Assembly: GCA_964479045.1 (NCBI GenBank)
Contig: CAYZJI010000012.1
Span: forward strand, 9,321-73,320
DNA: 64,000 bases
Direction: 5' to 3'
DNA from: an uncultured Enterobacteriaceae bacterium
GTDB taxonomy: Bacteria > Pseudomonadota > Gammaproteobacteria > Eutrophobiales > Eutrophobiaceae
Positions within the stretch are counted from its first letter, which is position 1, and each line of letters starts with the position of its first letter. The notes beneath the pieces were generated by a model. The model saw only the letters and a program-made list of their open reading frames with translations, ran no database searches and was not told the origin of the DNA. Of the stretch, positions 15,286-33,541 are shown piece after piece. The position numbers and the translations under genes are program-made.

Positions 15286-15573
15286 TCAGTTAAGGAGAGT
15301 CAGGGGTGGGGCACGTATACCGTAGTGAACAGCAGGAACAGCCGGATAAACAAACCGTGTGATCGGAACATCGAACAGGAGCTCAGGAAGCGAAACTGCA
15401 TTTGCGGAAATATTTACTGCAGTTCCATGATGATGGTTCTGCAGTGTACAGACGTCACACCCGCCATCCTGTCCGGCCAGCACATGTTCTGTTGCATGCG
15501 CGAGGCCCAGCCACTGGCTCAAAACCAGCAACAGGGCCAGCGAGGTGGCCAAATGTGGGTATCGCAGACGCAT
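15286..15573 (-). CDS. DUF2946/CruR-like leader protein with CxxC-HHH and C-terminal RAPP
   Basis: N-terminal hydrophobic helix, CDVC..HHH, ends YGIRAPPLTLLN; directly upstream of the TonB receptor. Confidence 0.75.
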   Translation of the reverse strand: MRLRYPHLATSLALLLVLSQWLGLAHATEHVLAGQDGGCDVCTLQNHHHGTAVNISANAVSLPELLFDVPITRFVYPAVPAVHYGIRAPPLTLLN

Positions 15574-15578
15574 ATAAG

Positions 15579-15593
15579 TGTTATATTATAACA
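15579..15593. promoter_or_regulatory. Zur box
   Basis: Perfect 7-1-7 palindrome TGTTATA-T-TATAACA matching the gammaproteobacterial Zur consensus, between the divergent zinc genes. Confidence 0.92.
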
Positions 15594-15625
15594 TTACGTT
15601 CAGTTCAAGCGTTTAAGAGAATCTT

Positions 15626-16123
15626 ATGGCACACAATCGAGTATTAATTCCCTTTCAAAAAAGGGGGCATGCCCACAAGCATTGCCGTGATTCAGCTTTG
15701 TCAGCTGCAGAACAGACCTGTGATGCGCGTGGTGTGCGTCTCACCAAACTGCGTCGCCGGGTACTGGAATTGATCTGGAGCAGTCATGAACCGGTCAAGG
15801 CGTATGACCTGCTGAACAAACTGCGTGATGAACATGCCGGTTCAGCACCGCCGACGGTTTACCGGGCGCTGGATTTTTTGCAGGCCGAGGGAATGGTGCA
15901 CAAAATCGAGTCACTGAATGCCTATGTCGGTTGCGGTGATCCACACGAAAGCCACAACAGCCAGTTTCTGATTTGTGACAGTTGTGGGGCAGTTGCGGAA
16001 ATGGACAATGCAGAAGTGACCCAGTTACTCGCCGACAAGGCGCGCCAGTTGGGGTTTCGTATTGATTACCAGATGATTGAAATCAAGGGACTCTGTTCCA
16101 ACTGTTCGGGCACGGACCGCTGA
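15626..16123 (+). CDS. zur: Zinc uptake regulator (Fur family)
   Basis: RLTKLRRRVLEL, PPTVYRALDFL, HKIESLNAYVGC and two CxxC motifs; heads znuACB. Confidence 0.92.
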   Translation: MAHNRVLIPFQKRGHAHKHCRDSALSAAEQTCDARGVRLTKLRRRVLELIWSSHEPVKAYDLLNKLRDEHAGSAPPTVYRALDFLQAEGMVHKIESLNAYVGCGDPHESHNSQFLICDSCGAVAEMDNAEVTQLLADKARQLGFRIDYQMIEIKGLCSNCSGTDR

Positions 16124-16135
16124 AGGGACTCTTCC

Positions 16136-17011
16136 ATGCGTCGTGCTCTGTTTACTATGGTGATTGTCAGTGTGTTGTGTCTGGCCGTTGTTCCGGCTCA
16201 CGCAACCGGTGCACTTGATGTATTTGTCAGTATCTTGCCGCAGAAATATCTGCTTGAAAGGATCGGCGGTGAACAGGTACGGGTGCAGGTCATGGTGAAG
16301 CCCGGACTGAATCCCGAAACCTACGAGCCGACGCCCAGACAGATGGCAGCCTTGAGCCGCGCTGATCTGTATTTCCGTATCGCTGTGCCGTTTGAGGAGA
16401 TCTGGATTGGCAAAATCCATGATCAGAATCCAATGCTGAAAATAATTGAATGCTGTGCTGAATTAACGATCACCGATCCGCCCCCGTATGATCCCGTGAC
16501 AGGCACGGAAAGTAATATCGGAGTGGATGCCCATGTGTGGACCAGTCCGCACAATGCCAGAGTGCTGGCGCGGATTGTCCTGGAAGCCCTGACGGAAGCT
16601 GATCCGGAGCATGCGGAAAATTATCAGGTTAATTTTCACAGGTTGATAATGGATCTGGATGAACTTGATCATTTCATACAGGAGACACTTTCAGAGGTTG
16701 ATAACCGTTATTTGCTGGTGGCGCACCCGTCCTGGGGACACTTCGCAGCACAGTATGGATTGACCCAGATCGCGATAGAACGGCATGGGACCGAGGCGCG
16801 TGCCCGGCAGCTTGCGCACTTGATTGAATTTGCAAAATCAGAGCGTATTCAGTACATCTACTTGCAAAAACAGTTTGATTCTCCTGCTGCCAGAATGCTG
16901 GCCGATGCCATCGAGGCGAAACTGATAGAGCTGGATCCGCTGGCGGAAAATTATATTGAAAATCTCCGGCAGGTCGCACTCAGCATCGCGAACGCGGAAA
17001 ACCAGCCATGA
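16136..17011 (+). CDS. znuA: Zinc ABC transporter substrate-binding protein
   Basis: PETYEP, DAHVWTSP, HPSWGHFA and LDPLA cluster A-I motifs; signal peptide. Confidence 0.88.
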   Translation: MRRALFTMVIVSVLCLAVVPAHATGALDVFVSILPQKYLLERIGGEQVRVQVMVKPGLNPETYEPTPRQMAALSRADLYFRIAVPFEEIWIGKIHDQNPMLKIIECCAELTITDPPPYDPVTGTESNIGVDAHVWTSPHNARVLARIVLEALTEADPEHAENYQVNFHRLIMDLDELDHFIQETLSEVDNRYLLVAHPSWGHFAAQYGLTQIAIERHGTEARARQLAHLIEFAKSERIQYIYLQKQFDSPAARMLADAIEAKLIELDPLAENYIENLRQVALSIANAENQP

Positions 17012-17742
17012 CGGCGGCAATTGAAATCAACCAAGTCAATTTTGCCTACGATCGTGAACCGGTGCTGAGTGATATTTACCTCACGGTCACGGCGGAAGAG
17101 TTTCTCGGTGTCATTGGTCCGAATGCAGGCGGAAAAAGCACCTTGATCAAATTGATACTGGGTCTGTTAACGCCGGCGGCCGGCAGCATACGGGTGCTGG
17201 GTAAAACACCGGCGCAGGCCCGCGCGCAGATAGGTTATGTGCCACAGCATCCCACATTTTCACGCCGCGATTTTCCCATCGATGTACGCGACACTGTGTT
17301 GATGGGCCGGTTGGGGAAAGTCTCGCGCCTTGCCGGATATTCGAAGGAAGATCGGATAATCGCGGATAATGCCTTGCGCGCCGTGGAAATCCATGACATC
17401 GCCAGACGGCCGATCGGTGAATTGTCCGGCGGACAGTTACAGCGTGTGCTGATTGCGCGTGCGCTGGCCTGTCAGCCGGAAATCCTGATTCTGGATGAGC
17501 CTACCGCCAATATTGATATGCGTGCTGAGGAAGATATTTTCGGTTTGCTGAAACACTACAACGACCACATGACCATTATAGTGGTGTCGCATGATATTGG
17601 TTTCATCTCCGGTTATGTCGATCGGGTCGCGTGTCTGAACCGCAGTCTGGTCTGCCATGCCACGGATGCGATCAGCGGTAAAACCATTGAGGAGTTGTAT
17701 GGAGCGCCGGTCAGGATGATCCACCACCATCATAGTCATTGA
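17008..17742 (+). CDS. znuC: Zinc ABC transporter ATPase
   Basis: GPNAGGKS, LSGGQLQR, LDEPT; His-rich tail. Confidence 0.9.
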   Translation: MTAAIEINQVNFAYDREPVLSDIYLTVTAEEFLGVIGPNAGGKSTLIKLILGLLTPAAGSIRVLGKTPAQARAQIGYVPQHPTFSRRDFPIDVRDTVLMGRLGKVSRLAGYSKEDRIIADNALRAVEIHDIARRPIGELSGGQLQRVLIARALACQPEILILDEPTANIDMRAEEDIFGLLKHYNDHMTIIVVSHDIGFISGYVDRVACLNRSLVCHATDAISGKTIEELYGAPVRMIHHHHSH

Positions 17743-18581
17743 ATCCCATGTTCGAATTTTTTACGGAAATTTTCAGCTATCGCTTTATGCAGCATGCATT
17801 GCTGGCCTGTTTGCTGGCGAGTATCGGCTGCGGGATCATGGGCACGTATGTGGTGGTCAAACGGATCGGTTTCATGGCGGGCGGTATTGCCCACTCGGTA
17901 CTCGCCGGAATGGGTATCGCTTATTTCCTGGGTTCATCACCATTATTCGGCGCCATGTTTGCGGCACTGGTTTCCGGCATCATGATCGGCTGGATCAATC
18001 TGCATTGGCGGGAACATGAGGATATCCTGATTGCTGCGTTCTGGTCAGTGGGCATGGCCATAGGTGTGATCTTTATTTCCCGCAGCGAGGGCTATAACAT
18101 CGATTTGATGAGTTATCTGTTTGGAAACATTCTGCTGGTATCACAGCAGGATTTATGGCTGATGTTATTACTGGATATAGTGATCGCATTGCTGGTAGCC
18201 ATGTTTTACCGGCAGTTTCTGGCGGCAGCGTTTGATGAGGAGTTTGCGCGCCTGCGTGGCGTGAATGTCGAGTTTTACTACATGCTGCTGTTGTGCATGG
18301 TGGCATTGACCGTGGTGCTGCTGATCCAGGTTGTGGGGCTGATTCTGGTGCTGGCCCTGCTGATATTGCCGGCTGCCAGTGCCGCGCAGTTTGTCAGTTC
18401 CATCGGCCGTATGATGTTGCTGGCAGTCGTTTTCTGTGCGCTGATCACAACGACCGGACTGATCCTGTCGTATGAGCCGGATCTGCCATCCGGATCCACC
18501 ATCATCCTGCTTGCCGGAATTTTTTATCTGTTCTCTATTCTCGGGCGCAGAGTCCTGAAGCGGATCTATAACGGCCGCTGA
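17739..18581 (+). CDS. znuB: Zinc ABC transporter permease
   Basis: GGIAHSVLAG, SYLFGNIL and FDEEFA motifs. Confidence 0.9.
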   Translation: MNPMFEFFTEIFSYRFMQHALLACLLASIGCGIMGTYVVVKRIGFMAGGIAHSVLAGMGIAYFLGSSPLFGAMFAALVSGIMIGWINLHWREHEDILIAAFWSVGMAIGVIFISRSEGYNIDLMSYLFGNILLVSQQDLWLMLLLDIVIALLVAMFYRQFLAAAFDEEFARLRGVNVEFYYMLLLCMVALTVVLLIQVVGLILVLALLILPAASAAQFVSSIGRMMLLAVVFCALITTTGLILSYEPDLPSGSTIILLAGIFYLFSILGRRVLKRIYNGR

Positions 18582-18585
18582 AAAG

Positions 18586-19644
18586 CTATTTTGCTGAGCG
18601 GCGTTTGGCGGAAGCCTGCGCCAGCCGATCAATCAACGGCACGGTATCTTCCCAGCCAATGCACGCATCGGTAATGCTTTGCCCGTAGACCAGCGGTTTG
18701 CCTTCAACCACATCCTGGCGTCCGGCCACCAAGTGGCTTTCGATCATGATGCCGAAAATACGCTTTTCACCGCCGGCGATTTGATCAGCAATAACCTTGC
18801 CGACTTCCATCTGGTTTTGCGGTACCTTGCGGCTGTTGGCATGACTGAAATCCACCATGATCCGTGGTGGCAGTTTGGCGGCTTCCAGTTCTTTGGCCGC
18901 CTGATCAATGCTCGCCGGATCATAGTTCGGTGATTTACCCCCACGCAGGATGATGTGACAATCCGGATTACCTTTTGTTGAAAAAATCGCCGAGTTGCCT
19001 TCCTTGCGCAGTGACAGGAAATGATGCGGACGCATGGCCGCGCCGATGGCATCCACCGCGACCTTGATGGTGCCGTCCGTGCCGTTCTTGAAACCGACGG
19101 GGCATGAGAGACCGGACGCGAGTTCACGATGTACCTGGCTTTCTGTTGTGCGTGCACCGATTGCGCCCCAGCTGATCAGATCAGCTACATACTGTGGCGT
19201 GATTAAATCCAGATATTCAGTTCCGGCAGGCACGCCCATGTCATTCAGATCACGCAACAGGGATCGCGCAATACGCAATCCCTTGTTGATCTGAAAGCTG
19301 TTGTCCAGATCCGGATCATTAATCAGACCCTTCCAGCCAACTGTGGTACGGGGCTTTTCAAAATACACACGCATTACAATCAGCAAATCCTTGCGGTATT
19401 TATCAATCAATGGTTTCAGGCGTGATGCATATTCCTTTGCCGCCTTGATGTCATGAATAGAGCATGGCCCGGTAATCACGAGCAGACGATCGTCCTTGCC
19501 TTCCAGGATCTCGTGTATGGCCTGACGGGTTTCGTACGTGGTTTTAGCAGCCGCTTCTGTCAGCGGAATTTCTTCGCAGATTTCTACAGGCGGCGTGACA
19601 GACTTGATGGATTCAATCCGAAGATCATCGGTTTTGTATTGCAT
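18586..19644 (-). CDS. 3-deoxy-7-phosphoheptulonate (DAHP) synthase, class I (AroF/G/H type)
   Basis: GPCSIHD, RVYFEKPRTTVGWKG and IGARTTESQVHRELASG; paralog identity unresolved. Confidence 0.95.
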   Translation of the reverse strand: MQYKTDDLRIESIKSVTPPVEICEEIPLTEAAAKTTYETRQAIHEILEGKDDRLLVITGPCSIHDIKAAKEYASRLKPLIDKYRKDLLIVMRVYFEKPRTTVGWKGLINDPDLDNSFQINKGLRIARSLLRDLNDMGVPAGTEYLDLITPQYVADLISWGAIGARTTESQVHRELASGLSCPVGFKNGTDGTIKVAVDAIGAAMRPHHFLSLRKEGNSAIFSTKGNPDCHIILRGGKSPNYDPASIDQAAKELEAAKLPPRIMVDFSHANSRKVPQNQMEVGKVIADQIAGGEKRIFGIMIESHLVAGRQDVVEGKPLVYGQSITDACIGWEDTVPLIDRLAQASAKRRSAK

Positions 19645-19698
19645 AAATTCCAGCGTTCTTTAATTAAATGAAATAATGAATGATACAACTGCCGGGTA

Positions 19699-20040: not shown

Positions 20041-20098
20041 GGTAATAAATAGGTTTAACGGGTCAGGCCGGATTATACATTAATAAGGAATGTTCTGA

Positions 20099-20390: not shown

Positions 20391-20421
20391 TTGACTCCGT
20401 ACCTCACTAGAGGTCTATACT
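20391..20421 (+). promoter_or_regulatory. MerR-family-type promoter (19-bp spacer) for leader ORF-cusCBA
   Basis: TTGACT-CCGTACCTCACTAGAGGTC-TATACT; long spacer with partial dyad. Confidence 0.75.
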
Positions 20422-20455: not shown

Positions 20456-20881
20456 ATGGGCATATTCAGAAAATTCATCTCCAGACAGACCTGGCTGCTG
20501 ATCATTCTGGCCGGCATTCTGCAGGTCCAGGCCGCGCAGGCGGTCGCCTGTGACTTGATGATGACCATGCCGGAAACGGCTGGAGAGAACTGCAACAAAC
20601 ATCTTGCCCAGGCACAGCAGGAAAATACCTCAGATAAAACCTGCTGTGATATGGATCATGATTACATGGCGGATTCCGGTGATTGCAATGACAGCAATCT
20701 TGCTGTCAATTCATATCTCTCAGGGAAACTCAATCCGGAAGTTGTGTATTCATTAATATCGTATGTATTGCATGATCAATTCATTGTTACTCAATCCGGC
20801 TTAATTTCTGCATCACCGGCCCGTCATTCAGTATACCCGGGCAACCACACTTACCTCACGACACAGCGCCTGCGGATCTAG
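20456..20881 (+). CDS. Cys/Met/His-rich leader protein upstream of cusCBA (CopL-like position)
   Basis: N-terminal hydrophobic segment, CDLMMTM, CCDMDHD, ends YPGNHTYLTTQRLRI. Confidence 0.65.
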   Translation: MGIFRKFISRQTWLLIILAGILQVQAAQAVACDLMMTMPETAGENCNKHLAQAQQENTSDKTCCDMDHDYMADSGDCNDSNLAVNSYLSGKLNPEVVYSLISYVLHDQFIVTQSGLISASPARHSVYPGNHTYLTTQRLRI

Positions 20882-20882
20882 A

Positions 20883-20942
20883 CGCCTGCTCCATCCGCTT
20901 CCGTATGTTACGGAAGCCATGCAGCGACGTTTTTATTTTTTT
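20883..20942 (+). terminator. Hairpin plus U-tract between leader ORF and cusC (possible attenuator)
   Basis: Core GCTTCCGTA-TGT-TACGGAAGC (20897-20917), extendable to about 20883-20926, then TTTTATTTTTTT. Confidence 0.5.
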
Positions 20943-20960
20943 ACCCGTCAGGAGTTGTTT

Positions 20961-22235
20961 ATGAACACCTTGTTTACTGGCTCTCACGCCAGAGCACATC
21001 CATTATGGCCGGCCGGCCACAGCATGATTTTGTTGGCGGCCATTACTCACGCTCAGGCTGCACCGCTGGGTTTTGCTGAAGCGTTAACGCTGGCTGAACA
21101 GAATGCGCCATCGCTGTCTGCACAACAGGCCGGCATAGAAGCCGCTGAATATTCAGCAGTGCCTGCGGGCGAATTGCCGGACCCAAAACTTTTTGCCGGG
21201 ATAGAAAATTATCCGGTGTCTGGTCCGGCCAGCGGCAGCCTGACTGAAGATTTCATGACCATGCAGAAAATCGGTTTGATGCAGGAGATTCCAAACGGCG
21301 ACAAACGGCGCGCCCGTGTCGATGCAGCAGCAGCGGAAATAGATCGCAGCCGGATCATGCAACAAGTGGAACGCCTGAGGGTGCGCCGGGAAACAGCATT
21401 GGCCTGGATAGAACGTTACATTGTCGATCGCAAACTTGGATTGTTCAGTGAACTTGAACATGAAAATAAATTACTTGCGGAAGCGGTGACTGCACAGCAG
21501 GTCGCCGGCGCGGGTTCGATTACAGATACCCTGCTGGCACGTGAAGAGGAAGCCATGCTGGCCGATGCGCGTGATGAACTGGTGCGGGACCAGTCTGCGG
21601 CAACGGCACGGTTGCGGCGCTGGACCGGTGTGGTCGTGGATGAACCCCTGGCCGGTGAGCCGCCGGCCTGGCCCATCTCCCGCGACATCCTTGAACACCG
21701 GTTGCATCAACATCCGGAACTGCTCGCCTATGTTCCCATGGCACAGAAAATTGATGCAGAAGTGCGGGAAGCGGTCGCCATGAAAAAACCGGACTGGGCG
21801 GTGGAGCTTGCCTATCAGCATCGTGATGATGAATTCGGTGATATGGTGTCCATGCAATTCACTGTTGACCTGCCGATATTTCCCGGCCGGCGGCAGGACC
21901 CGCAAATCGCAGCGCGGCGTGCCGAGCGGCTCAGGCTCGATGCTGAACGCGAAAATACCTGGCGTGAGCATCTGGAAATGCTTGAGTCAGAAATCGCTGA
22001 ATACGAACAACTGGATCGGGCCGTGCAACGGCAAAAAGACTTGTTGTTGCCACTGGCCCAGGAAAAAGTGGACTTGATTATGGCAGCCTATCAAGGTAAC
22101 CGGTCAGATCTGATGAGTGTGATTGAAGCACGGCGTAAATTGATAGAGGCCCGGTTGAAACTGATTGAGCTCGAAGGTTCGCGTACCGGAACGGCCGCCC
22201 GTCTGCATTATGCCTACGGGGAGGATCTGCCATGA
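20961..22235 (+). CDS. cusC: Outer-membrane factor of Cu/Ag efflux system (TolC family)
   Basis: LPDPKL, QKIGLMQEIP, MVSMQFTVDLP; RBS AGGAG before ATG 20961; operon context. Confidence 0.82.
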   Translation: MNTLFTGSHARAHPLWPAGHSMILLAAITHAQAAPLGFAEALTLAEQNAPSLSAQQAGIEAAEYSAVPAGELPDPKLFAGIENYPVSGPASGSLTEDFMTMQKIGLMQEIPNGDKRRARVDAAAAEIDRSRIMQQVERLRVRRETALAWIERYIVDRKLGLFSELEHENKLLAEAVTAQQVAGAGSITDTLLAREEEAMLADARDELVRDQSAATARLRRWTGVVVDEPLAGEPPAWPISRDILEHRLHQHPELLAYVPMAQKIDAEVREAVAMKKPDWAVELAYQHRDDEFGDMVSMQFTVDLPIFPGRRQDPQIAARRAERLRLDAERENTWREHLEMLESEIAEYEQLDRAVQRQKDLLLPLAQEKVDLIMAAYQGNRSDLMSVIEARRKLIEARLKLIELEGSRTGTAARLHYAYGEDLP

Positions 22236-23494
22236 GCACTAAAAATATTCAATCGAGCATGCTAATCATGCTGGCGCTGCTGGCCGGTGCAGCTATCGGT
22301 TATTTTTATGCTGATTATTTTCCTGAGGATGACAAAATAAAAGCGGAAAAACCCGGGGCCATGTCCGTCACTGAAAGGGAAAGAAAAGTGCTGTACTGGT
22401 ATGACCCGATGTTTCCGCAACAGCAATTTGATCAACCCGGTAAATCACCGTTCATGGATATGGAACTGGTGCCGAAATATGCAGATGAAGAGAACAGTAC
22501 GGCATCAGTCAGTATCGATCCGGGCCAGGCACAGAATATCGCCGTGCGTTATGCAACGGTGACACGCGGTTCATATGCGACAACCATTGATGCTATTGGA
22601 ACCTTTGCTTATAACGAACGGGATGTTGCTATCGTCCAGAGCCGGGCCGTTGGTTTTGTGGAGCAGGTTTATCCGCTTGCTCCGGGTGATGTAATTGAAA
22701 GCGGCGCGCCTCTGGCCGATATTCTGGTGCCGGAATGGACAGCTGCACAGATCGAATTTCTGGCGTTGCTGAAGACCGGGGAAACAACACTGATCGAAGC
22801 AACCCGCGAACGTCTGAAACTGCTAGGCATGTCGTCCTGGCTGATCAAACAGATTGAAGAGACCGGCAAAACCCGTCCGATCATTTCAGTGACGGCGCCG
22901 ATTGCCGGTGTGATTCGGGAGCTGGAGATTCGTACGGGCATGGCCGTCACCACTGGTCAGACATTTGCACGCATTAATGGAATTGAATCTGTGTGGCTGG
23001 ATGTGGCAGTACCAATGACGCAGGGTGCAACGATCAAAACCGGGGATAGTGCAGAAGCCAGAGTAGTCGCTTATCCCGGACAGGTTTTCTCCGGCAAGGT
23101 GATCGCAATATTACCTGAGCTCAACGTAGATACCCGTACGCTGAGAGTGCGGCTTGAGTTTGAAAATGAAGACAGTCGCTTCCGGCCCGGCATGTATGCG
23201 GAAGTGACGCTGCGCAATGCCGAAGAGCAGATGGCATTGCAGGTGGTCAGCGAGGCGGTGATACGCACCGGCCGTCATGCTCTGGTCATGCGTGTCGATG
23301 GTGACGGGCGTTACCAGCCGGTGGAAGTTGAAACGGGCCCCGAAGTTGAAGGAATGACCGTGATCCTGAGCGGACTGGAAGAAGGTCAGCAGGTTGTGGC
23401 CTCAGGACAATTCCTGTTTGATTCTGAAGCCAACCTCAGAGGAATCGTGCCGACCGTTCCGGAAAAAACGCATGTGCATGGAGGTGGCGAATGA
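22232..23494 (+). CDS. cusB: CusB-type membrane fusion protein
   Basis: [29 protein letters not shown] heavy-metal-binding motif; MFP core. Confidence 0.9.
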
Positions 23495-26400: not shown

Positions 26401-26613
26401 CGTGAGGGCGCCGTTTTGCGGGTGCGACCGAAAGCAATGACCGTCGCGGTGATCGTTGCAGGTCTCTTGCCCATCTTCTGGGGCAGTGGTACCGGCAGTG
26501 AAGTCATGACGCGGATTGCTGCCCCTATGGTTGGTGGCATGATTACCGCGCCACTGCTGTCATTGTTTGTGGTTCCGGCGGTGTACTACATGTTACGCAG
26601 ACGAATCAAGTAA
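23491..26613 (+). CDS. cusA: CusA/SilA heavy-metal RND pump (Cu+/Ag+)
   Basis: [23 protein letters not shown]; Met triad contexts LYMP, LEMFET and IDMLATG present. Confidence 0.95.
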
Positions 26614-29600
26614 ACGGATGTTTGTCTTTGTAGACAATACGATATAACGCGGGCAGGACAAACAGTGTGAGCAAGGTGGATGAAATAATGCCGCCGATCA
26701 CAACCGTTGCCAGCGGGCGTTGCACTTCGCTGCCGACACCGGTATTGAAGGCCATCGGCAAAAATCCCAGCGAAGCCACCAACGCGATCATCAGAATAGG
26801 CCGTAGACGCAACAGTGCGCCTTTTATAAGGGCTGCCTCAATACCAATTTCTTCATTGTCAAGAATATCGCGGAAAGCCGACACCATCACCACGCCTGTA
26901 AGTACCGCAACGCCGGATAGAGTAATGAAGCCAATGCCAGCAGAGATCGATAAAGGAATATCCCGCAGCCAGAGCGCCGCGATGCCGCCAGTCAGCGCCA
27001 GTGGAACTCCACTGAATACGAGCAAGGCATCTTTCGCTGATCCGAACGTCATCAGTAATAACCCGAAGATCATCAATAACGTTAACGGCACCAGCAATTC
27101 CAGACGTGCGGCAGCAGATTCCAGTTGTTCAAAAGTGCCGCCATAATCAAGCCAGTATCCCGGCGGAAGTTTGACGTTTTGCGCGATGGCTTGCTGCACT
27201 TCCGCGACAAAGCTGCCCAGATCACGATTCCGCACATTCGCAGATACCACTACACGCCGTTTGCCATTTTCGCGGTTAACCTGATTGAGACCCGGCGCAA
27301 CCGTCAGGTTTGAGACATCTGAGAGAAGTATATAACCGCCATCCGGCAAAGGAACAGGCAAGCGCTCAATGTTTCCGATGTCTGTGCGCATCTGTTCCGG
27401 CAGGCGCACGACGAGGCTGAAACGTTGATCGCCTTCAAATATTTGCCCTGTTTCCCTGCCGCCCAATGCTATTTCAATGACCTCCTGTACATCTGCAACA
27501 TTAAGCCCGTAACGGGAAAGTGTATTACGATCCGGAGTAATGCTGAGCATGGGCAGGCCACTGACCTGTTCAACCTTGACTCCGGATGCCCCTGCTACGG
27601 GTTGCATTACTGCCGCAACACGATTGCCGATTTTCAGGAGCGTGTCGAGATCATCACCAAAAATCTTGACGGCAAAATCGGAACGCACACCTGAGATTAA
27701 TTCGTTGAAGCGCAACTGGATGGGTTGTGAAATTTCAAAGTTATTGCCCGGTACATTACGCACGGCGGTTTCGATTTCATCCAGTAATTGTGCCTTGGTT
27801 TTTGAGGGATCAGGCCATTCCGCATGCGGTTTAATCATTACATAACCATCCGAGACATTCGGCGGCATGGGATCTGTTGCTACCTCGGCAGTACCCGTGC
27901 GCGCGAATGCGGTGTGGACTTCCGGCAATTTCAGCAGTGCCCGCTCAATTGCTGCCTGCATTTCCAGTGATTGATCCATGCCGGTGCCGGGAATCCGGAT
28001 GGCCTGAACGGCAACATCGCCTTCATCCAGTTTGGGAACAAACTCGCTGCCCATATGCGATGCCAGCCAGAGTGAGCCGATAACCAGCAGAGTGGCTGCA
28101 CTTACGGTAAGCCAGCGCATCTTCAAGGCAAATTTCAGCATTGGGGTGTAAATCCATTTTGAAAATTCGATCAACCGGTTTTCTTTTTCACTTATCTTGC
28201 CGCGCAAGGTCAGCGCGACAGCAGCAGGAATAAAGGTCAGCGAGAAGATCAGTGCGCCGATTAACGCTACGACCACAGTGAAAGCCATCGGCCAGAACAT
28301 TTTTCCTTCCACCCCGGTGAGGGCAAAGATAGGAAGATTGACCAGCACTACCACAATCACACTGACTAGGCTGGGTTTGAATACTTCACGGGTGGCAATA
28401 TAAACCGTATGGAAACGTTCTTCGGCCGTCAGTACACGGCCTAGATGATGTTGTTTCTGCGCCAGCCGCAGGATGCAGTTTTCCACGATAATTACCGCGC
28501 CGTCCACGATCAAACCAAAATCCAGTGCTCCCAGACTCATGAGATTGGCGCTTACACGGTTTTCCACCATGCCGGTGATCAGGAACAGCATGGATAACGG
28601 GATCACTGCCGCTGTGACCAGTGCGGCGCGCAGGTTGCCCAGCAGAGCAAGCAATACCGCCACAACCAGCACAGCGCCTTCCAGAAGATTTTTCTGCACT
28701 GTGGCAATGGTTTTATCGACCAGTACGGTCCGGTCATACACTGCTTCGGCTTTCACGCCCGGCGGCAAGGTAGTGGAAACTTCTTTGAGTTTCTCAGCCA
28801 CCCGCTGGGACACCGTGCGGCTGTTTTCACCCACCAGCATCACGGCAGTACCTAGCACAGTCTCTTCACCATCGCGTGTGGCTGCGCCAGTGCGTAATTC
28901 TTTACCGATAGCAACTTCAGCTACATCGTGTACGCGAAGGGGTACACCATCCCGATTCGCAACAATCACAGACTCAATATCGGGAATACCGGCTAACTGA
29001 CCAGGAGCGCGAATCAGGTATTGCTCACCGCTTTTTTCAATATAACCGGCCCCGACATTGGCATTATTACGCTCCAACGCATCAATAACGTCATTAAAGG
29101 ACAAACCCAGAGCGATCAGTTTTGCTGGGTCGGGTGTTACATGATATTGCTTGGCATATCCGCCAATGCTGTTAACCTCGGTGACGCCCGGCACCTGCCG
29201 CAACTGCGGCCGGATGATCCAGTCCTGCACGGTGCGCAGGGCCGTGGCGTCATAAGCGCGGCCATCCGGTTGTTTGGCACCGGGTTCGGCAGTCACTGTG
29301 TAAAGAAATATTTCACCCAGTCCAGTGGCGATCGGCCCCATGCTGGGTTCGATACCGGGTGGCAACAGGCTTTTCACTTCCTGTATCCGTTCATTCACCA
29401 ACTGCCGTGTGAAATAAACATCTGTGCCATCCTCAAATACCACCGTGACTTGTGACAGACCGTATCGTGAGAGTGAACGGGTGTATTCCAGATTTGGCAG
29501 ACCGGCCATGGCTGTTTCAACGGCATAGGTGATCCGTTGTTCAGTTTCCAGTGGCGAATAACCCGGTGCTTCAGTATTGATTTGCACCTGTACATTGGTA

Positions 29601-29725
29601 ATGTCTGGCACTGCATCAATCGGAAGCCGCTGATAATTGTATACTCCAAGTCCTGCAACCAGAGTGGTCAGAAACAGGATTACCCAGCAGCGTTCAATGG
29701 AGAAACGGATAATGGCATCAATCAT
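26606..29725 (-). CDS. czcA: CzcA heavy-metal RND pump (divalent cations)
   Basis: [25 protein letters not shown] and [15 protein letters not shown] motifs. Confidence 0.95.
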
Positions 29726-30368
29726 GATGAGTACCCTCAGACTTATTACAAGAATTTGTGGGGCTCAAGAGGTGACTTTGTGCTTCTGCCGCTTCCCTGA
29801 GAATTTCGAGGCAACTGCGCATAATCAATATTGCGATTGCAATACCGATTAACAAATCCGGCCACCGGCTGTTCATCAACATGACCAGAGCGCCTGAAAT
29901 AAATACACCAATATTCGCCAGCACATCGTTTTGAGAGCAGATATAAGCTGCTCGCAAATGAATCTTGTCTTTCCGGAAGCGGGCAAGGAGTTTAAGGCAG
30001 GTTATATTTGCGGCCAGTGCTAGGATACTCATCAGCAACATAATCTGGCTTTCTGGCTCGTTACCATAGATAAAACGGCGCAGTACATCAATAATGACAC
30101 TTGCAGCCAGTAATAAGAGCGACCATCCAAACAATGTGGTTGCACGGCTTTTCCAGTAATCCGGGCGCCCGATAGCATAGAGAGCGACACCGTATAAAGC
30201 AGCATCTGAAGCCATATCTAATGAATCGGCCAACAGACCACTGGAGTTTGCCCACAAACCGGCTGTGCCCTCAATCACAAACATCGTCGCATTGATAACG
30301 AGTACAATCCACAGTGTGCGGCGTTCCTCTGCGGTATGTAATTCAAATTCGCATTCACAGTTTGACAT
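29718..30368 (-). CDS. Cation diffusion facilitator lacking the cytoplasmic C-terminal domain
   Basis: LLADSLDMASD and SQNDVLANIGV; six TMs; only 216 aa. Confidence 0.85.
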   Translation of the reverse strand: MSNCECEFELHTAEERRTLWIVLVINATMFVIEGTAGLWANSSGLLADSLDMASDAALYGVALYAIGRPDYWKSRATTLFGWSLLLLAASVIIDVLRRFIYGNEPESQIMLLMSILALAANITCLKLLARFRKDKIHLRAAYICSQNDVLANIGVFISGALVMLMNSRWPDLLIGIAIAILIMRSCLEILREAAEAQSHLLSPTNSCNKSEGTHHD

Positions 30369-30377
30369 GTTGTCTCC

Positions 30378-31652
30378 TCAGTGCTCGTGTTCTGCTTCGT
30401 TCTTGCCAAGCTCTGCTTTCAGCAGAAAACTGTTTTGAGTAACGTACATGTCGCCGGGATTGATTCCCTCAAGCACTTCCACCCATGTGCGATCCTGCCG
30501 TCCTGCTTTGAGCGGACGGGCTTCAAATTCATCTTCATCAACACGAATGAAAACAACCGGCTCATTGTTAATGGTTTGTATGGCGGAAGGTTTTATCGCT
30601 ACCGGAACTTCAAATTTTTGTTCGGTGATTTCTGCTTCCACAAACTGACCGGGACGCCAGCGCTGGGACGTGTTATCCATCTGGATGTGAACAATAGCCT
30701 GCCGTGTATCTTCGCCTACCAGTGAACCAATGTAGGTCAGTGTGCCTTCATCTATCAGAGAACTGTTGACGCTGCGTACTGTTGCGCTCTGCCCGGTACT
30801 GAGTGTATCTATGATCTTTGGACTAACCGATACTGCGGCAATAACTGTGGCGAGGTCAGCAATGGTGAATACATTTTCATCTTCCGTTAAGGCTTCGCCG
30901 ATGACAGCATGTTTTTCAATCACCACGCCATCCATGGGAGCCCGTACTTCATAACGGTTAAGAGGCAGTTTTGGATCAGTGCCGATCCTGTTTATCGTTG
31001 AGATATCAAAACTGAGTGCCTGCAGAGCTTGTTCGGCTGCCCGCACTGCAATTTCCGCCTGGCTGCGCTCATTGCGCGCAGCCAAGTAATCCTGTTCAGC
31101 GGAAATTTTTTGTTCCCATAATTCAGCTTCACGAGCGTAAGTGGTATCAGCAAGATTAAGCTGTTGCCGTGCCACCAGATAATCACTCTTGAGTTCAGCG
31201 AGTTCGCGGCTTTCCAGCACGATCAATACATCACCCTTTTTGACATTGTCGCCAAGTTCGGTATTCACTTCAGTCACCACGCCTTTCAAACGTGGTACGA
31301 CATGGGCCTGTCGATCAGGATGAATTCGAACCTCGCCTGACAAAACAGATACAACGCTGATTTGTGCGGGAGTTACTACTTCGATTTGAATGCCCGATGA
31401 TTTTTGGACAGCAACGGGTATTACAATACGTCCTTCTTCTGATCCTGATGATGCCTTATCATGTTCATGAGCAGGGGTTGTTTCTGCCTCACCTTCAGTG
31501 TGTCCGGTGTTGTTTCTGTGATCATCAGCATCGTTGTTAGCCTGTACGGTTTCGATAAAGACAGGTGTCATGCTGTGGTCCGGCCATAGATACAAAATAC
31601 CGGCGAACACTAACGGAAATAAAATAATTATCGATATTAGCCTGCGTATCAT
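30378..31652 (-). CDS. czcB: CzcB-type membrane fusion protein
   Basis: His-rich N-terminal periplasmic region, RAPMDGVVIEKH and WRPGQFV. Confidence 0.9.
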   Translation of the reverse strand: MIRRLISIIILFPLVFAGILYLWPDHSMTPVFIETVQANNDADDHRNNTGHTEGEAETTPAHEHDKASSGSEEGRIVIPVAVQKSSGIQIEVVTPAQISVVSVLSGEVRIHPDRQAHVVPRLKGVVTEVNTELGDNVKKGDVLIVLESRELAELKSDYLVARQQLNLADTTYAREAELWEQKISAEQDYLAARNERSQAEIAVRAAEQALQALSFDISTINRIGTDPKLPLNRYEVRAPMDGVVIEKHAVIGEALTEDENVFTIADLATVIAAVSVSPKIIDTLSTGQSATVRSVNSSLIDEGTLTYIGSLVGEDTRQAIVHIQMDNTSQRWRPGQFVEAEITEQKFEVPVAIKPSAIQTINNEPVVFIRVDEDEFEARPLKAGRQDRTWVEVLEGINPGDMYVTQNSFLLKAELGKNEAEHEH

Positions 31653-32986
31653 GGTGTATTTCCTCCAACAGGACTGGCGAGTTCGCCCACCGTAGCAACA
31701 TCGGCATCTAACAAACGTCCGGCATCAGCTGCGGCAGCATGGTAGTTTTCGAGGGCGTTGATGTACTGAATGCGGGCATCAAAGAGGGTGCGTTGTGCAT
31801 CCAGTACATCCAGATAACTGAATTTACCGGCACGGTAGCCGGCGGTCATTGCTGTAAAAGCGTATTGTGCTGCAGGTAGAACCTCGTCACGAATGATATT
31901 GACTTCACTATAGGCTGCCTGTAGTTGCTGGTAGAGATCATGCAGCGCCGTGGTCAAGCGCAGACGTGTGGCGGTCTGATCAGCTGTTGCCGCCAATGCT
32001 TGATAACGTGCGGAAGCTATTTCGCCCTGATTGCGATTAAAGATGGGTAGCGGGACTGAAACGGTGGCAATCAATGCCGCATCATCGTCTTCCGCAAAAT
32101 GCCGGATACCCGCACCAATAGTGATGTCAGGTATTTTGTCTGCTTCAGCCAACTTCTGTTGGGCCTGTCTGAACTGGATTTCGGTATTCCAGCGCATCAG
32201 ATCCGGGTTGTTTTCCAATGTGGCCATAATGAGATCGAAATCCGGCAGAGGCGGGATATTTTCAATATCCGCTATAATTTCGCTGAATCCCGGTGTGCTT
32301 TCACCCCATTGGGCGGAAAGCCGTTTACGGGCGGCTGCTAGCTCAGCCTTGGCATGTGCAACTTCGATACGTGTGCTGGTGGCGGTGACCTGGGCACGGG
32401 ATTCTTCGATAGGTGATACTTTGCCGGCCTTGATCCGTTCTTTTACGTTATGTACGACTTCTTCGGCAAGCTTCACCAGTTCATCGGCGAGCGCAAGATG
32501 TTGTTGAGCGGCGGCCACTGCAACAAATTCCTTGCGGGTTGATGTTATGATGTCGAGACGTTTGGCTTCACGCTCCCAAACTGTTCGATCCCGATCCAGA
32601 CCGGCGGCGGTGATGCGCCGTGCACGTTTGCCACCAAGCTCGATCAACTGACTTATCTGCAAAGACGTTTCAGCAGACTCAAATCCGGAGCGGTTGCCAC
32701 CACCGGCAAAATTTTCAATTTCAAGACCCAATTCAGGATTCGGGATCAAGCCCGCCTGCAGCGTCCTTCCCTCGGCTGCAAGAATGTTACATTCCGCAGC
32801 AACGATATCCGGATGGTTCTTCAATGCTGATTCTATTGCCAGCATGAGCGTGATTGAGCCGGATGGGTAGTCAGCAGGCCAATCCCTACTGTCCGTACAA
32901 TTGTAATTGTCAGCATATGAAATGCTGGTTGTTATCAATAAAACAAGCATCAGTATGATGCGCGTTATTACAGGACATATACTCAT
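31649..32986 (-). CDS. czcC: CzcC-type outer-membrane factor
   Basis: QLIELGGKRARR, SVPLPIFNRNQG and LDVLDAQRTL; RBS GAGGAG before ATG 32986. Confidence 0.9.
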   Translation of the reverse strand: MSICPVITRIILMLVLLITTSISYADNYNCTDSRDWPADYPSGSITLMLAIESALKNHPDIVAAECNILAAEGRTLQAGLIPNPELGLEIENFAGGGNRSGFESAETSLQISQLIELGGKRARRITAAGLDRDRTVWEREAKRLDIITSTRKEFVAVAAAQQHLALADELVKLAEEVVHNVKERIKAGKVSPIEESRAQVTATSTRIEVAHAKAELAAARKRLSAQWGESTPGFSEIIADIENIPPLPDFDLIMATLENNPDLMRWNTEIQFRQAQQKLAEADKIPDITIGAGIRHFAEDDDAALIATVSVPLPIFNRNQGEIASARYQALAATADQTATRLRLTTALHDLYQQLQAAYSEVNIIRDEVLPAAQYAFTAMTAGYRAGKFSYLDVLDAQRTLFDARIQYINALENYHAAAADAGRLLDADVATVGELASPVGGNTP

Positions 32987-33163
32987 GTCCGAACTCCTCA
33001 AATTGGTTATGAAACCAGATACCCGGTTTCGCCATATAACTTGCGATGATGTGCAGCAAGCACATCAATACCAGGCTATACGGAAAAGATTCGTAGTGAT
33101 TTGCTTTGCATGATGCGAATAGGCATCACGCAGCAAAATCAGTTCTATGATTGATTGATGGGT

Positions 33164-33541
33164 TTAGGGGGAAGCGCGGGAAGGCGGCCGTAAAGTAAAA
33201 ATAACCGGCCGCAGAAAAAGGATAATAACTTCATGCCGGATAACCCGGAGAGCAAGGAGGGCTAACAATAATGAAACAAACAATACCAATGGCAGGAGAT
33301 CTGGTGTTAATTTGACCTTGGCAATCAGGCTGTGAAACTGCAAATCAATTTCACCCGACTGATCATGTGGCTGATCATGCGCATGCCCACCAAGGACATG
33401 CACTTGAGGAGCGCCTGTCGCCAGAAAATCATGGTTATGCATATGTAAATGTCCAAACTGCACGGTCAACATCAACAGTGATACCAGCACAAGCACATGC
33501 GTGCTGTAGGTGAAGCGGCGTAATAATTTCAACGGATTCAT
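33164..33541 (-). CDS. His-rich CzcI-like leader protein upstream of czcC
   Basis: TM helix, HLHMHNH..HAHDQPHD, second hydrophobic segment, ends LRPPSRASP. Confidence 0.65.
   Translation of the reverse strand: MNPLKLLRRFTYSTHVLVLVSLLMLTVQFGHLHMHNHDFLATGAPQVHVLGGHAHDQPHDQSGEIDLQFHSLIAKVKLTPDLLPLVLFVSLLLALLALRVIRHEVIILFLRPVIFTLRPPSRASP

What the first reader, a model, noticed from the sequence alone, without database searches (positions are those of the whole stretch)
15286..33541. Three metal-transport operons, each headed by a different metal-binding leader ORF
Seen: znuD (CxxC-HHH, RAPP), cusCBA (Cys/Met-rich, ends QRLRI) and czcCBA (His-rich, ends RPPSRASP) share one layout: N-terminal membrane helix, metal ligands, Arg-containing C-terminal motif, then structured RNA before the first transport gene. 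No CusRS or CzcRS genes are in the window. Inference: a general nascent-chain metal-sensing layer, with ligand chemistry matched to Zn uptake, Cu(I) export and divalent export, partly replacing two-component control.
Basis: inference. Interest (0 to 1): 0.65.

Follow-up and report, generated by a model that had tools for sequence, protein, structure and literature searches.

The report
Small leader genes before metal-transport operons
Three metal-transport operons in this stretch each begin with a small exported metal-binding protein whose conserved last few residues and the RNA fold behind them look built to switch the transporter on or off while the protein is still being made; this control principle is already known for copper, but two of the three leader families appear undescribed.

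Summary
Three real ORFs (95, 141 and 125 aa) head a ZnuD-like receptor gene, a cus-type RND operon and a czc-type RND operon. Each has an N-terminal hydrophobic helix, metal ligands, a distinctive C-terminus and a stable RNA fold before the transporter gene. No CusRS/CzcRS genes are in the window.

Leader 1 fits the CruR/DUF2946 pattern (CxxC, RAPP, 44-residue spacing), a proven copper-sensing arrest-peptide family. A 2023 survey of CutF-like proteins already found RND outer-membrane genes to be their commonest neighbour.

New here are two families absent from Pfam and NCBIfam:
- Leader 2 ends in invariant TYLxTQRLRI-stop. It occurs in 29 genomes, and 20 of 24 with enough DNA show cus-type genes downstream. 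A co-varying helix ties the leader's stop region to the next gene's ribosome-binding site.
- Leader 3 ends in PPxRASP-stop. It precedes czcCBA in all eight contexts that have downstream DNA, with two co-varying hairpins between.

"Replacing two-component control" is not supported. A Zur box precedes leader 1, and a MerR-type promoter with a CueR-like regulator serves leader 2. No ribosome arrest was tested. A trans-acting accessory-protein role remains a serious rival.

The parts
15579..15593 (.). Zur box, a perfect palindrome TGTTATATTATAACA, lying between zur and L1, 5 nt upstream of the L1 start codon
   Evidence: exact match; 0.08 expected at up to 2 mismatches. It resembles the Zur boxes listed for Caulobacter in PMC4176598.
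15286..15573 (-). Leader 1 (L1), 95 aa, CruR/DUF2946-like: export helix, CxxC, HHH, and RAPP five residues before the stop
   Evidence: (DUF2946 is the only Pfam hit, E 0.006, below the gathering score). The CxxC-to-RAPP spacing is 44 residues, against 45 +/- 2 in the family.
15304..15315 (-). RAPP codons of L1, the candidate arrest point
   Evidence: Read from the sequence. Arrest at RAPP has been shown for CruR (PMC12992588).
15223..15299 (-). L1-to-receptor RNA element. CUCUCC (15299..15294, inside the last L1 codons) pairs with the receptor's ribosome-binding site GGAGAG (15228..15223), enclosing a 14-bp hairpin (15268..15235).
   Evidence: z = -3.0; 0 of 200 shuffles fold as well
13240..15216 (-). 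ZnuD-like TonB-dependent receptor. The likely start is ATG 15216, 6 nt after GGAGAG.
15626..18581 (+). zur followed by a znuABC-like zinc ABC transporter, divergent from L1
20391..20421 (+). MerR-type promoter in front of L2: TTGACT, 19-nt spacer containing a dyad, TATACT
   Evidence: 2 matches in the window against 0.01 expected. The sequence resembles the operator in front of the merR-like gene.
20456..20881 (+). Leader 2 (L2), 141 aa: signal peptide, conserved Cys/Met/His positions (C32, M35, C46, H49, C63-C64, C77), and an invariant tail G..TYLxTQRLRI followed by stop
20849..20878 (+). Codons of the L2 tail TYLTTQRLRI, the candidate pausing or arrest sequence
   Evidence: Synonymous codons vary freely across the 29 distinct DNA tails (30 loci including the window).
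20863..20958 (+). L2-to-cusC RNA element. The last L2 codons (20863..20875) pair with the ribosome-binding region of the OEP gene (20945..20958, CAGGAG), enclosing a 9-bp hairpin (20897..20917).
   Evidence: z = -4.7. Family-wide arm-permutation test: (0 of 20000).
20961..26613 (+). cus-type operon: OEP (likely start ATG 20961), CusB-like adaptor (22232..23494), and an HME-RND pump (23491..26613) with the [15 protein letters not shown] motif
26606..32986 (-). czc-type operon: OEP (31649..32986), CzcB-like adaptor (30378..31652), a short CDF gene (29718..30368), and an HME-RND pump (26606..29725) with the [15 protein letters not shown] motif
32987..33163 (-). L3-to-czcC intergenic RNA (177 nt): hairpin A 33131..33108, hairpin B 33067..33047, and further window-specific hairpins
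   Evidence: z = -4.2. Hairpins A and B co-vary in homologous loci.
33164..33541 (-). Leader 3 (L3), 125 aa: two hydrophobic helices, a His-rich loop (HLHMHNH, HVLGG, HDQSGEIDLQF), and the tail FxLRPPSRASP followed by stop
33167..33199 (-). Codons of the L3 tail FTLRPPSRASP, a candidate pausing sequence that ends in Pro-stop
   Evidence: Wobble positions vary.
33707..33738 (+). MerR-type promoter/operator (20-nt spacer) driving the merR-like gene and the ATPase gene
   Evidence: It is conserved in L004 and L005.
33752..34168 (+). MerR-family regulator, most similar to CueR. Likely start ATG 33767. It carries a C-X8-C motif near the C-terminus.
35202..37532 (+). Copper-type P1B ATPase
   Evidence: TIGR01511, 604 bits against a cut-off of 397

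Best explanation
Each operon starts with a small protein gene that acts mainly in cis, as a translated sensor. The proposed steps are as follows.

1. The N-terminal helix sends the growing chain to the membrane. The metal ligands then lie outside the ribosome while the conserved C-terminal tail is still inside it.
2. Metal binding changes how long the ribosome dwells on the last codons.
3. A ribosome sitting there covers the RNA that otherwise pairs with the ribosome-binding site of the first transport gene (L1, L2). For L3 it may instead prevent the downstream hairpins from forming. This controls translation, and possibly Rho-dependent or intrinsic termination, of the transporter genes.

For the uptake receptor (L1, CruR-like), arrest at RAPP would mean ON, and metal would relieve it. 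For the exporters (L2, L3), metal would prolong the pause, as in CutF.

This layer sits on top of ordinary transcriptional control: Zur for L1 and a CueR-like MerR regulator for L2. It does not replace that control.

Shown here: the ORFs, their families, the peptide-level conservation of the tails, the synteny, the RNA structures and their covariation, and the regulator sites.

Inferred: the arrest itself, the metal response, its direction, and the cis action.
For: L1:
- It has CxxC, RAPP, 44-residue spacing, an export helix and a receptor gene downstream.
- The anti-SD sequence lies 5-10 nt past the RAPP codons, inside the footprint of a ribosome stalled there.

L2:
- Five homologues found independently of the tail (32-41% identity) keep G..TYL.T.RLRI-stop unchanged.
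- The degenerate DNA pattern for the tail found 29 genome loci, against about 0.2 expected (my estimate). All are 100-163 aa ORFs, some truncated, with a signal peptide and Cys clusters.
- 20 of 24 loci with at least 900 nt downstream carry OEP and/or CusB- and CusA-like genes, starting 29-483 nt after the stop and mostly within 50-170 nt.
- Tail codons vary synonymously.
- Spacing from ligand motif to C-terminus is constrained: 71-79 aa from the last CC motif, 43-45 aa from SDVDPP.
- The downstream ribosome-binding site pairs with a segment lying -14 to +22 nt around the leader stop. Cognate arms give -16.3 kcal/mol against -12.6 +/- 0.6 for permuted arms, 0 of 20000 permutations.
- An RNA contig spans leader end, spacer and OEP start in two metatranscriptomes. 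In one sample the leader contig has depth 157 against 5-6 downstream (a weak measure).

L3:
- In 14 homologues (28-67% identity), F.L.PP..A.P is invariant at the C-terminus, with no insertions or deletions between the second helix and the tail.
- All 8 homologous loci with downstream DNA show OEP 135-145 nt downstream, followed by CzcB and CzcA wherever the DNA reaches that far.
- Two intergenic hairpins have 12 of 26 pairs with compensatory changes; 0 of 500 shuffles reach this, and slid controls are much lower. Hairpin B includes part of the ribosome-binding site.

Precedents: CruR, CutF and the CutF-like survey. In C. metallidurans, cusD is transcribed without cusCBA in unchallenged cells.
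Against: - No arrest, metal binding or cis requirement was measured.
- RASP and RLRI are not among the sequences shown to arrest. In RAPP the third Pro tolerates only Gly, and the Arg is irreplaceable. In distant L3 relatives the Arg is His, Gly or Leu.
- For L3, pairing between the stop region and the ribosome-binding site shows no cognate-specific signal (p = 0.78). Hairpin B lies about 100 nt from the stop.
- The L2 helix would also be expected under plain translational coupling, without any arrest.
- Eighteen of the 24 sequences in alignment A8 were found through the tail pattern, so their tail identity is circular.
- CzcI, the positional analogue of L3, is described as a trans-acting periplasmic 'quencher'.
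- Structure predictions were of low confidence and cannot exclude a folded domain.
- L1 scores below Pfam's DUF2946 threshold.
Confidence: 0.5

Rival explanations
1. L2 and L3 are working accessory proteins of the pumps that act in trans. L2 would be a periplasmic Cu(I)/Ag(I) chaperone or metal buffer in the manner of CusF. L3 would be a small inner-membrane or periplasmic modulator in the manner of CzcI. Their conserved tails would dock onto a pump subunit or set protein turnover. The RNA helix would only couple translation of the OEP gene to that of the upstream gene, to balance amounts.
For: - Conserved ligand positions and a conserved signal peptide or membrane helices suit a stable envelope protein.
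- CzcI of C. metallidurans is reported as a periplasmic quencher of Czc activity.
- An SD-masking helix next to an upstream stop codon is also the classic layout of translational coupling.
- The non-Pro tail of L2 matches no known arrest motif.
Against: - The most conserved segment is the last 10 residues, which end exactly at the stop codon, while the presumed functional domain diverges to 20-40% identity.
- Spacing from the ligand motifs to the C-terminus is constrained, as it is in CruR.
- The predicted structures are largely disordered outside the helices.
- CutF and CruR, which have the same layout, act in cis and are degraded after export.
- The tail pattern occurred only in this one family among 185,579 genomes, so it is not a general sorting or docking tag.
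Confidence: 0.3
2. Metal control of these operons is entirely transcriptional: Zur, the CueR-like MerR regulator, and regulators encoded outside the window (for czc perhaps a CzcRS pair elsewhere). The leaders and RNA structures would affect only basal mRNA stability, processing or polarity, with no metal input of their own.
For: - Zur box at 15579..15593.
- MerR-type promoters at 20391..20421 and 33707..33738, with a CueR-like gene in the window.
- MerR-family genes lie near 11 of 29 L2 loci and 2 L3 loci. Two-component genes lie near 3 loci.
Against: - This does not explain the invariant, peptide-level conserved tails or the conserved metal ligands in the leaders.
- L1 belongs to a family where a post-transcriptional metal input has been demonstrated.
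- No regulator site was recognised for the czc operon in the window.
Confidence: 0.15
3. The three ORFs are chance open frames or annotation noise in long 5' untranslated regions, and the motifs are coincidental.
For: No Pfam or NCBIfam family reaches threshold for any of the three.
Against: - Homologues with conserved length, signal sequence, ligands, tails and synteny exist for L2 (34 or more) and L3 (13).
- Synonymous variation shows selection on the protein.
- L1 has the CruR motifs at the family's spacing.
Confidence: 0.02

Closest known systems
CruR (Bp2923, DUF2946) of Bordetella pertussis: a copper-responsive upstream ORF before the TonB-dependent transporter gene bfrG (Roy et al. 2022, PMC9426467; arrest shown in vitro by Fujiwara et al. 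2025, PMC12992588)
   Same: L1 is the first gene before a TonB-dependent receptor gene. It has an N-terminal export helix and a CxxC motif. It has RAPP a few residues before the stop, with 44 residues between the motifs (family: 45 +/- 2). The end of the ORF is C-rich and G-poor.
   Different: - L1 is shorter (95 aa against about 145).
- It adds an HHH run after the CxxC.
- It scores below Pfam's DUF2946 threshold.
- The spacer is 69 nt, not 162, and is predicted to mask the receptor's ribosome-binding site directly.
- The operon carries a Zur box and sits next to zur-znuABC, and the receptor is ZnuD-like. The metal sensed may therefore be zinc rather than copper. This is untested.
CutF of Rhodobacter capsulatus and the 'CutF-like' proteins (Ozturk et al. 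2023, PMC9973294; 2025 preprint 10.1101/2025.02.05.636593)
   Same: A small Sec-exported protein with periplasmic metal ligands and a C-terminal stalling motif. A stem-loop masks the ribosome-binding site of the next gene and is opened by the paused ribosome. The survey found OEP genes of RND efflux systems to be the commonest downstream neighbour. L1 and L3 meet the survey's operational filter (under 150 aa, PP in the last 15 residues, N-terminal signal).
   Different: - L2 has no PP in its last 15 residues, so it fails that filter. Its tail TYLxTQRLRI is not proline-based.
- Neither L2 nor L3 shows detectable sequence similarity to L1 or to Pfam DUF2946.
- L3 has a second membrane helix and a His-only ligand set, placed in front of a czc operon.
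RAPP-like arrest peptides (SecM RAGP; ApdA and ApdP RAPP; ApcA RAPG)
   Same: Small secreted or membrane proteins with the critical motif at the extreme C-terminus, encoded upstream of the regulated gene, with release thought to depend on pulling force. L1 carries RAPP itself.
   Different: L3 has RASP, or HAPP in distant relatives. Ser at the third position and His in place of Arg were not permissive in the published mutagenesis. L2 has no such motif.
CzcI, CusD and SilD of Cupriavidus metallidurans (first genes of czcICBA, cusDCBAF and silDCBA)
   Same: They hold the same position as L3 and L2, as small first genes of HME-RND operons. The zntA<->czcICBA layout resembles ATPase<->L3-czcCBA here. 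cusD is transcribed without cusCBA in unchallenged cells, which fits attenuation after the leader.
   Different: No sequence similarity was detected: tblastn of L2 and L3 against 72,556 plasmid records gave nothing relevant. CzcI is said to lack the C-terminal proline motif and to act as a periplasmic quencher.

Membership tests
CruR / DUF2946 upstream ORFs (tested for L1) | CXXC motif in the mature part | tested here: met
   C39-D-V-C42
CruR / DUF2946 upstream ORFs (tested for L1) | RAPP motif a few residues before the C-terminus | tested here: met
   R87-A-P-P90, five residues before the stop
CruR / DUF2946 upstream ORFs (tested for L1) | Spacing of about 45 (+/- 1-2) residues between CXXC and RAPP | tested here: met
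   44 intervening residues (counted; criterion)
CruR / DUF2946 upstream ORFs (tested for L1) | N-terminal export signal, and first gene of an operon containing a TonB-dependent transporter or another metal gene | tested here: met
   Hydrophobic segment 8-24; receptor gene 69 nt downstream
CruR / DUF2946 upstream ORFs (tested for L1) | Match to the Pfam PF11162 model above its gathering score | tested here: not met
   It is the only Pfam hit, but at 17.8 bits against a cut-off of 23.7 (E 0.006), covering model positions 50-117 of 117. I therefore call L1 CruR-like rather than a certified DUF2946 member.
CruR / DUF2946 upstream ORFs (tested for L1) | Copper-relieved ribosome arrest that controls the downstream gene | not testable with these tools
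   Needs in vitro translation or reporter assays
CutF-like proteins (operational definition of PMC9973294) | Under 150 aa, N-terminal signal, PP within the last 15 residues, and a same-strand downstream gene within 1000 nt | tested here: met
   Met by L1 (PP at 89-90 of 95) and L3 (PP at 119-120 of 125) (criteria)
CutF-like proteins (operational definition of PMC9973294) | The same criteria applied to L2 | tested here: not met
   The last 15 residues of L2, YPGNHTYLTTQRLRI, contain no PP. Most family members have none there either.
RAPP-like arrest peptides | C-terminal core R-(A/G)-P-(P/G) or RAGP, with Arg irreplaceable | tested here: not met
   L3 has RASP, with HAPP in distant relatives. 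L2 has RLRI (criteria). L1 does meet this feature.
MerR-type (CueR-like) regulated promoter (tested for the L2 operon) | -35 and -10 hexamers separated by 19-20 nt, with a dyad operator in the spacer | tested here: met
   TTGACT-N19-TATACT with the dyad ACCTC-N4-GAGGT at 20391..20421. A second copy (N20) lies before the merR-like gene.
MerR-type (CueR-like) regulated promoter (tested for the L2 operon) | A cognate CueR encoded nearby | tested here: inconclusive
   The regulator at 33752..34168 scores 141.2 bits against a cut-off of 147.4 on the CueR model, and nearly as well on the MerR and ZntR models. Binding was not tested.
Zur regulon (tested for the L1 operon) | Palindromic Zur box at the promoter | tested here: met
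   TGTTATATTATAACA at 15579..15593. The zur gene is adjacent.
HME-RND efflux operons | CusA/CzcA-family pump with an adaptor and an OEP | tested here: met
   TIGR00914 scores 1393 and 1557 bits against a cut-off of 701. Adaptors are CusB-like and CzcB-like. OEP domains are present.

The most novel reading that the evidence does not exclude
The invariant tail TYLxTQRLRI-stop of the L2 family would be a new, proline-free class of metal-responsive ribosome pausing or arrest sequence. It would gate translation of cus-type copper/silver efflux operons in Nitrosomonas, Woeseia, Microbulbifer and many uncultured Proteobacteria. The L3 tail PPxRASP-stop would be a second new class, for czc-type pumps, read out through insertion of a membrane helix 25 residues upstream. 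Together with a possibly zinc-tuned CruR, this would mean that nascent-chain metal sensing has evolved several times with different arrest chemistries. It would also provide the only metal-specific control visible in this window for the czc operon.
Probability: 0.35. Interest if true: 0.75.

Novelty: new variant of a known kind. Interest (0 to 1): 0.55.

Why it matters
Control of metal transporters by a nascent chain is a recent discovery. It has been demonstrated for only two proteins, CruR and CutF, both copper-linked and both proline-based.

This window offers three test cases side by side. One is a CruR-like leader under Zur control, in front of a ZnuD-like receptor, which may be a zinc version. 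The other two are leader families not represented in Pfam or NCBIfam.

One of those, the L2 family, is widespread in environmental Proteobacteria, including ammonia oxidisers. It has an invariant tail without prolines. If that tail pauses ribosomes, it adds a new arrest chemistry. It would also explain how many cus operons that lack cusRS are tuned.

If the tail does not pause ribosomes, the family is still an unrecognised and widespread accessory component of copper efflux systems. The sequence features found here make direct experiments easy to design: tail codons, the anti-SD helix and the constrained spacing.

Tried and rejected
- Word-indexed homologue search for L2 found only the query itself. 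The full HMMER scan was needed.
- tblastn of L2 and L3 against the plasmid collection found nothing relevant, so no link to CzcI, CusD or SilD could be shown.
I replaced it with a degenerate DNA pattern for the tail.
- RNAalifold on a MAFFT alignment of the L2 spacers gave no structure because the register was lost. I replaced it with an arm-permutation duplex test. An internal-segment control failed numerically and is not used.
- The same permutation test for L3 (stop region against ribosome-binding site) was negative (p = 0.78). I do not claim an anti-SD mechanism for L3.
- Profile comparisons among the three families showed no homology (probabilities of 19% or less, confined to signal peptides).
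- Structure predictions had low confidence (mean pLDDT 47.8 and 57.5), so no fold search was run.
- MerR-type promoters are not a general feature upstream of L2 homologues (1 of 25 loci).
- Metagenome scans for L1 relatives and for the L3 tail pattern returned only chance hits.
- No RNA runs hold the window itself.
- ARAGORN found no tRNA around the group I intron.
- I considered hairpin A of L3 plus the U-tract behind it as an intrinsic attenuator. The U-run is short or displaced in several loci, so this stays a speculation.

Full report
**1. What is there**

The finding spans 15286..33541 and contains three small ORFs at the head of three metal-transport units.

- L1 (15286..15573, minus strand, 95 aa) precedes a TonB-dependent receptor. 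The receptor's best NCBIfam model is ZnuD (5e-126, 422 bits, below the 950-bit cut-off). The copper-receptor model scores only 1e-15.
- L2 (20456..20881, plus strand, 141 aa) precedes an OEP gene, a CusB-like adaptor (366 bits against a cut-off of 390) and a CusA/CzcA-family pump (1393 bits against 701).
- L3 (33164..33541, minus strand, 125 aa) precedes an OEP gene, a CzcB/NccB-like adaptor, a short CDF gene and a second CusA/CzcA-family pump (1557 bits).

Read directly, the first pump carries [15 protein letters not shown]. The second carries [15 protein letters not shown]. From my own knowledge of Nies' classification of HME-RND pumps, these are the monovalent (Cu/Ag) and divalent (Zn/Co/Cd) signatures.

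Each leader has an N-terminal hydrophobic segment, and L3 has a second one at residues 78-110.

tblastn with OmpR-type regulators and a sensor kinase finds nothing in the 64 kb (best E 0.2). The only receiver protein is an orphan NarL-type one at 12186..12839.

**2.

A perfect palindrome, TGTTATATTATAACA, lies at 15579..15593. It is 5 nt upstream of the L1 start codon, between L1 and the divergent zur-znuABC-like genes. It resembles the published Zur boxes of Caulobacter.

L2 is preceded at 20391..20421 by TTGACT-N19-TATACT with an internal dyad. A second promoter of this kind (N20) lies at 33707..33738, before a MerR-family gene. Two such sites were found against 0.01 expected.

That regulator scores best on the CueR model (141 bits against a cut-off of 147). 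It is followed by a copper-type P1B ATPase (TIGR01511, 604 bits against 397). Its operator is conserved in two related loci.

Two of the three operons therefore have ordinary metal-responsive transcription signals. No site was recognised for the czc operon.

**3. L1 is CruR-like**

The only Pfam hit of L1 is DUF2946. It is sub-threshold (E 0.006) and covers the C-terminal 68 positions of the model.

Roy et al. define the family by four features: a CXXC motif, a RAPP motif near the C-terminus, about 45 +/- 2 residues between them, and an export signal. Family members sit first in operons that often contain TonB-dependent transporters. L1 has all of these, with 44 residues between the motifs.

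For CruR, copper sensed through CXXC relieves arrest at RAPP and allows Rho-dependent termination. The arrest has been shown in vitro.

In the window, the RNA from the end of L1 to the receptor start folds with z = -3.0. CUCUCC (15299..15294), 5-10 nt beyond the RAPP codons, pairs with the receptor's GGAGAG (15228..15223) around a 14-bp hairpin. A ribosome held at RAPP would cover that segment and free the ribosome-binding site. This is an inference.

The HHH run, the Zur box and the ZnuD-like receptor raise the possibility that this copy responds to zinc. Nothing here tests that.

**4. L2 defines a widespread family absent from Pfam and NCBIfam**

The word-indexed search found only the query. 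The exhaustive HMMER scan found five full-length relatives at 32-41% identity. In their alignment the invariant positions are a few Cys, Met and His residues and the last residues, G..TYL.T.RLRI, ending at the stop.

A degenerate DNA pattern for that tail found 29 loci among one genome per species. Assuming even base composition, I estimate 0.2 hits by chance (42.4 bits over 1.2e12 positions). The loci come from Nitrosomonas marina, N. aestuarii, Nitrosomonas sp. Nm51, Woeseia, Microbulbifer sp. HZ11, Methylococcales, a Hyphomicrobiaceae MAG and others.

Every hit closes an ORF, of 100-163 aa where complete. Full-length ORFs have a signal peptide, FAC.MMD, CCC(D/E) and CCE motifs.

Of 24 loci with at least 900 nt downstream, 20 carry OEP and/or CusB-like and CusA-like genes. 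These start 29-483 nt after the stop, mostly within 50-170 nt.

No member hits Pfam or NCBIfam.

The tail codons vary freely at synonymous positions, so the peptide is what is conserved.

Spacing is constrained. The distance from the last CC motif to the C-terminus is 71-79 residues. From SDVDPP it is 43-45.

A caution: 18 of the 24 sequences in alignment A8 were found through the tail. Independent evidence for tail conservation rests on the five HMMER hits. It also rests on the pattern hitting only this one family.

**5. RNA behind L2**

In the window the last L2 codons (20863..20875) pair with CCG.CAGG.AGUUGU (20945..20958). This region holds the ribosome-binding site of the OEP gene, whose likely start is ATG 20961. 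The pairing encloses a 9-bp hairpin, and the fold has z = -4.7.

In 17 non-redundant loci, the best duplex with the downstream ribosome-binding region uses a segment lying -14 to +22 nt around the leader's stop codon.

Cognate pairs are more stable than permuted ones: -16.3 against -12.6 +/- 0.6 kcal/mol, with 0 of 20000 permutations reaching the observed value. The flanks of the helix therefore co-vary.

A terminating or paused ribosome would open this helix. That geometry matches secM-secA and cutF-cutO, but it also matches simple translational coupling.

Two estuary metatranscriptomes contain an RNA contig spanning leader end, spacer and OEP start of a Nitrosomonas marina-like locus. In an activated-sludge sample the leader contig has depth 157, against 5-6 for downstream contigs. 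This fits co-transcription with attenuation, but contig depth is a poor measure.

**6. L3 defines a rare family**

Two searches found 13 relatives at 28-67% identity.

The invariant features are HLHMHNH-like and HD.SGEIDL motifs and the C-terminus F.L.PP..A.P. In most members the tail reads FxLRPPSRASP followed by stop. In the most distant ones it reads FDLLPPAHAPPQ.

Wobble positions vary. There are no insertions or deletions between the second hydrophobic helix and the tail in any member.

All eight homologous loci with downstream DNA show an OEP gene 135-145 nt after the stop. CzcB- and CzcA-type genes follow wherever the DNA reaches that far. Two of the loci share the divergent merR-ATPase layout of the window.

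The spacer has two conserved hairpins. Of 26 pairs, 12 have compensatory changes and 88.8% of cells are paired. None of 500 shuffles reaches this, and slid controls give 22-52% paired. The 3' strand of hairpin B includes the first bases of the ribosome-binding site.

The window copy keeps both hairpins (33131..33108 and 33067..33047). It has extra sequence, including additional predicted hairpins, before its ribosome-binding site.

Pairing between the stop region and the ribosome-binding site shows no cognate signal (p = 0.78). How leader translation would reach hairpin B is therefore open.

The end of the ORF is C-rich and G-poor (21-27 C against 5-13 G in 60 nt). The rut region mapped in cruR has the same composition.

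The second helix would be 26-43 residues from the peptidyl-transferase centre when the tail is decoded. Membrane insertion there could pull on the chain. Both points are inference.

**7. How this compares with what is known**

The principle is published.
- CruR: Roy et al. 2022.
- CutF: Ozturk et al. 2023 and 2025. Copper-enhanced stalling at a C-terminal PPP motif melts a stem-loop over the cutO ribosome-binding site.
- RAPP/RGPP survey: Fujiwara et al. 2025. Such small proteins are found upstream of TonB-dependent receptors and copper genes.

The 2023 survey of CutF-like proteins used a defined filter: under 150 aa, a signal peptide, and PP in the last 15 residues. It found 5,334 proteins in 29 clusters. 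OEP genes of RND systems were the most frequent neighbour. It names CusD, SilD, CopL and CzcI.

L1 and L3 meet that filter. L2 does not.

Neither RASP nor RLRI is a permissive RAPP-like core.

Profile comparison shows no homology among the three families.

In C. metallidurans, cusD is expressed without cusCBA in unchallenged cells. CzcI is described as a periplasmic quencher. The first point fits attenuation. The second supports the trans-acting rival.

**8. Verdict**

The finding is real. The cis-sensor reading is the best-supported one for L1 (about 0.75) and plausible for L2 (about 0.45-0.5) and L3 (about 0.4).

It is a new variant of a known kind rather than a new principle. The claim that it replaces two-component control is not supported.

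The value lies in two undescribed leader families with clear, testable sequence features. One of them is widespread and has a tail without prolines.

Noticed in passing
window 42403..42639 (-): Rfam group I intron (RF00028, 80.4 bits, E 7.6e-19, full-length match), just downstream of rpoD (43167..45038, minus strand) and dnaG. ARAGORN finds no tRNA around it, so the host gene is unknown.
   Followed up: partly
window 12186..12839 (-) and 12850..13122 (-): An orphan NarL/LuxR-type response regulator (receiver domain 6.6e-21; GerE 1e-4, below threshold) and a TusA-like gene lie directly downstream of the ZnuD-like receptor on the same strand. No histidine kinase is in the window.
   Followed up: partly
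window 34280..34663 (+) and 34805..35059 (+): Two small membrane ORFs lie between the CueR-like gene and the copper ATPase. The first (127 aa) has a Met-rich stretch (MMHGKDENMMMKKMMEQ) and ends in HDTHH. Neither has a Pfam match above the gathering score (the second was not scanned). They may be further small metal-related proteins.
   Followed up: no
window 29718..30368 (-): A short CDF gene (216 aa, membrane domain only) sits inside the czc operon between the adaptor and pump genes. It overlaps the pump's start by 8 nt. In the related locus L008 the CDF gene follows the pump instead.
   Followed up: no
window 26606..26613: The two convergent RND pump genes overlap by 8 bp at their 3' ends, leaving no room for terminators between the cus-type and czc-type operons. 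Convergent transcription could make them interfere with each other.
   Followed up: no
window 15574..15625: Only 52 nt separate the L1 and zur start codons. The Zur box ends 5 nt before the L1 ATG, there is no Shine-Dalgarno sequence, and a possible -10 (TATAAC) lies just upstream. The L1 mRNA may therefore be leaderless or nearly so.
   Followed up: no
window 32987..33046 (-): Compared with homologous loci, the window's L3-to-czcC spacer carries extra sequence with an additional hairpin (33030..33011). The OEP protein also has a different N-terminus. At the position where the relatives' start codon aligns there is an out-of-frame ATG.
   Followed up: partly
L037 (Nitrosomonadaceae MAG) 5748..6149; also L019 and L020: Some L2-family genes are not followed by cus genes. 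In L037 a MerR-family gene starts 51 nt downstream. L019 resembles L031 up to the ribosome-binding site and then diverges. These may be rearranged or decayed loci.
   Followed up: no
L012 1511..1816 (run X11): An activated-sludge metatranscriptome contig covering an L2-family leader has assembler depth 157, against 5-6 for contigs over the downstream cus genes. This hints that the leader RNA far outnumbers the operon RNA in situ.
   Followed up: partly
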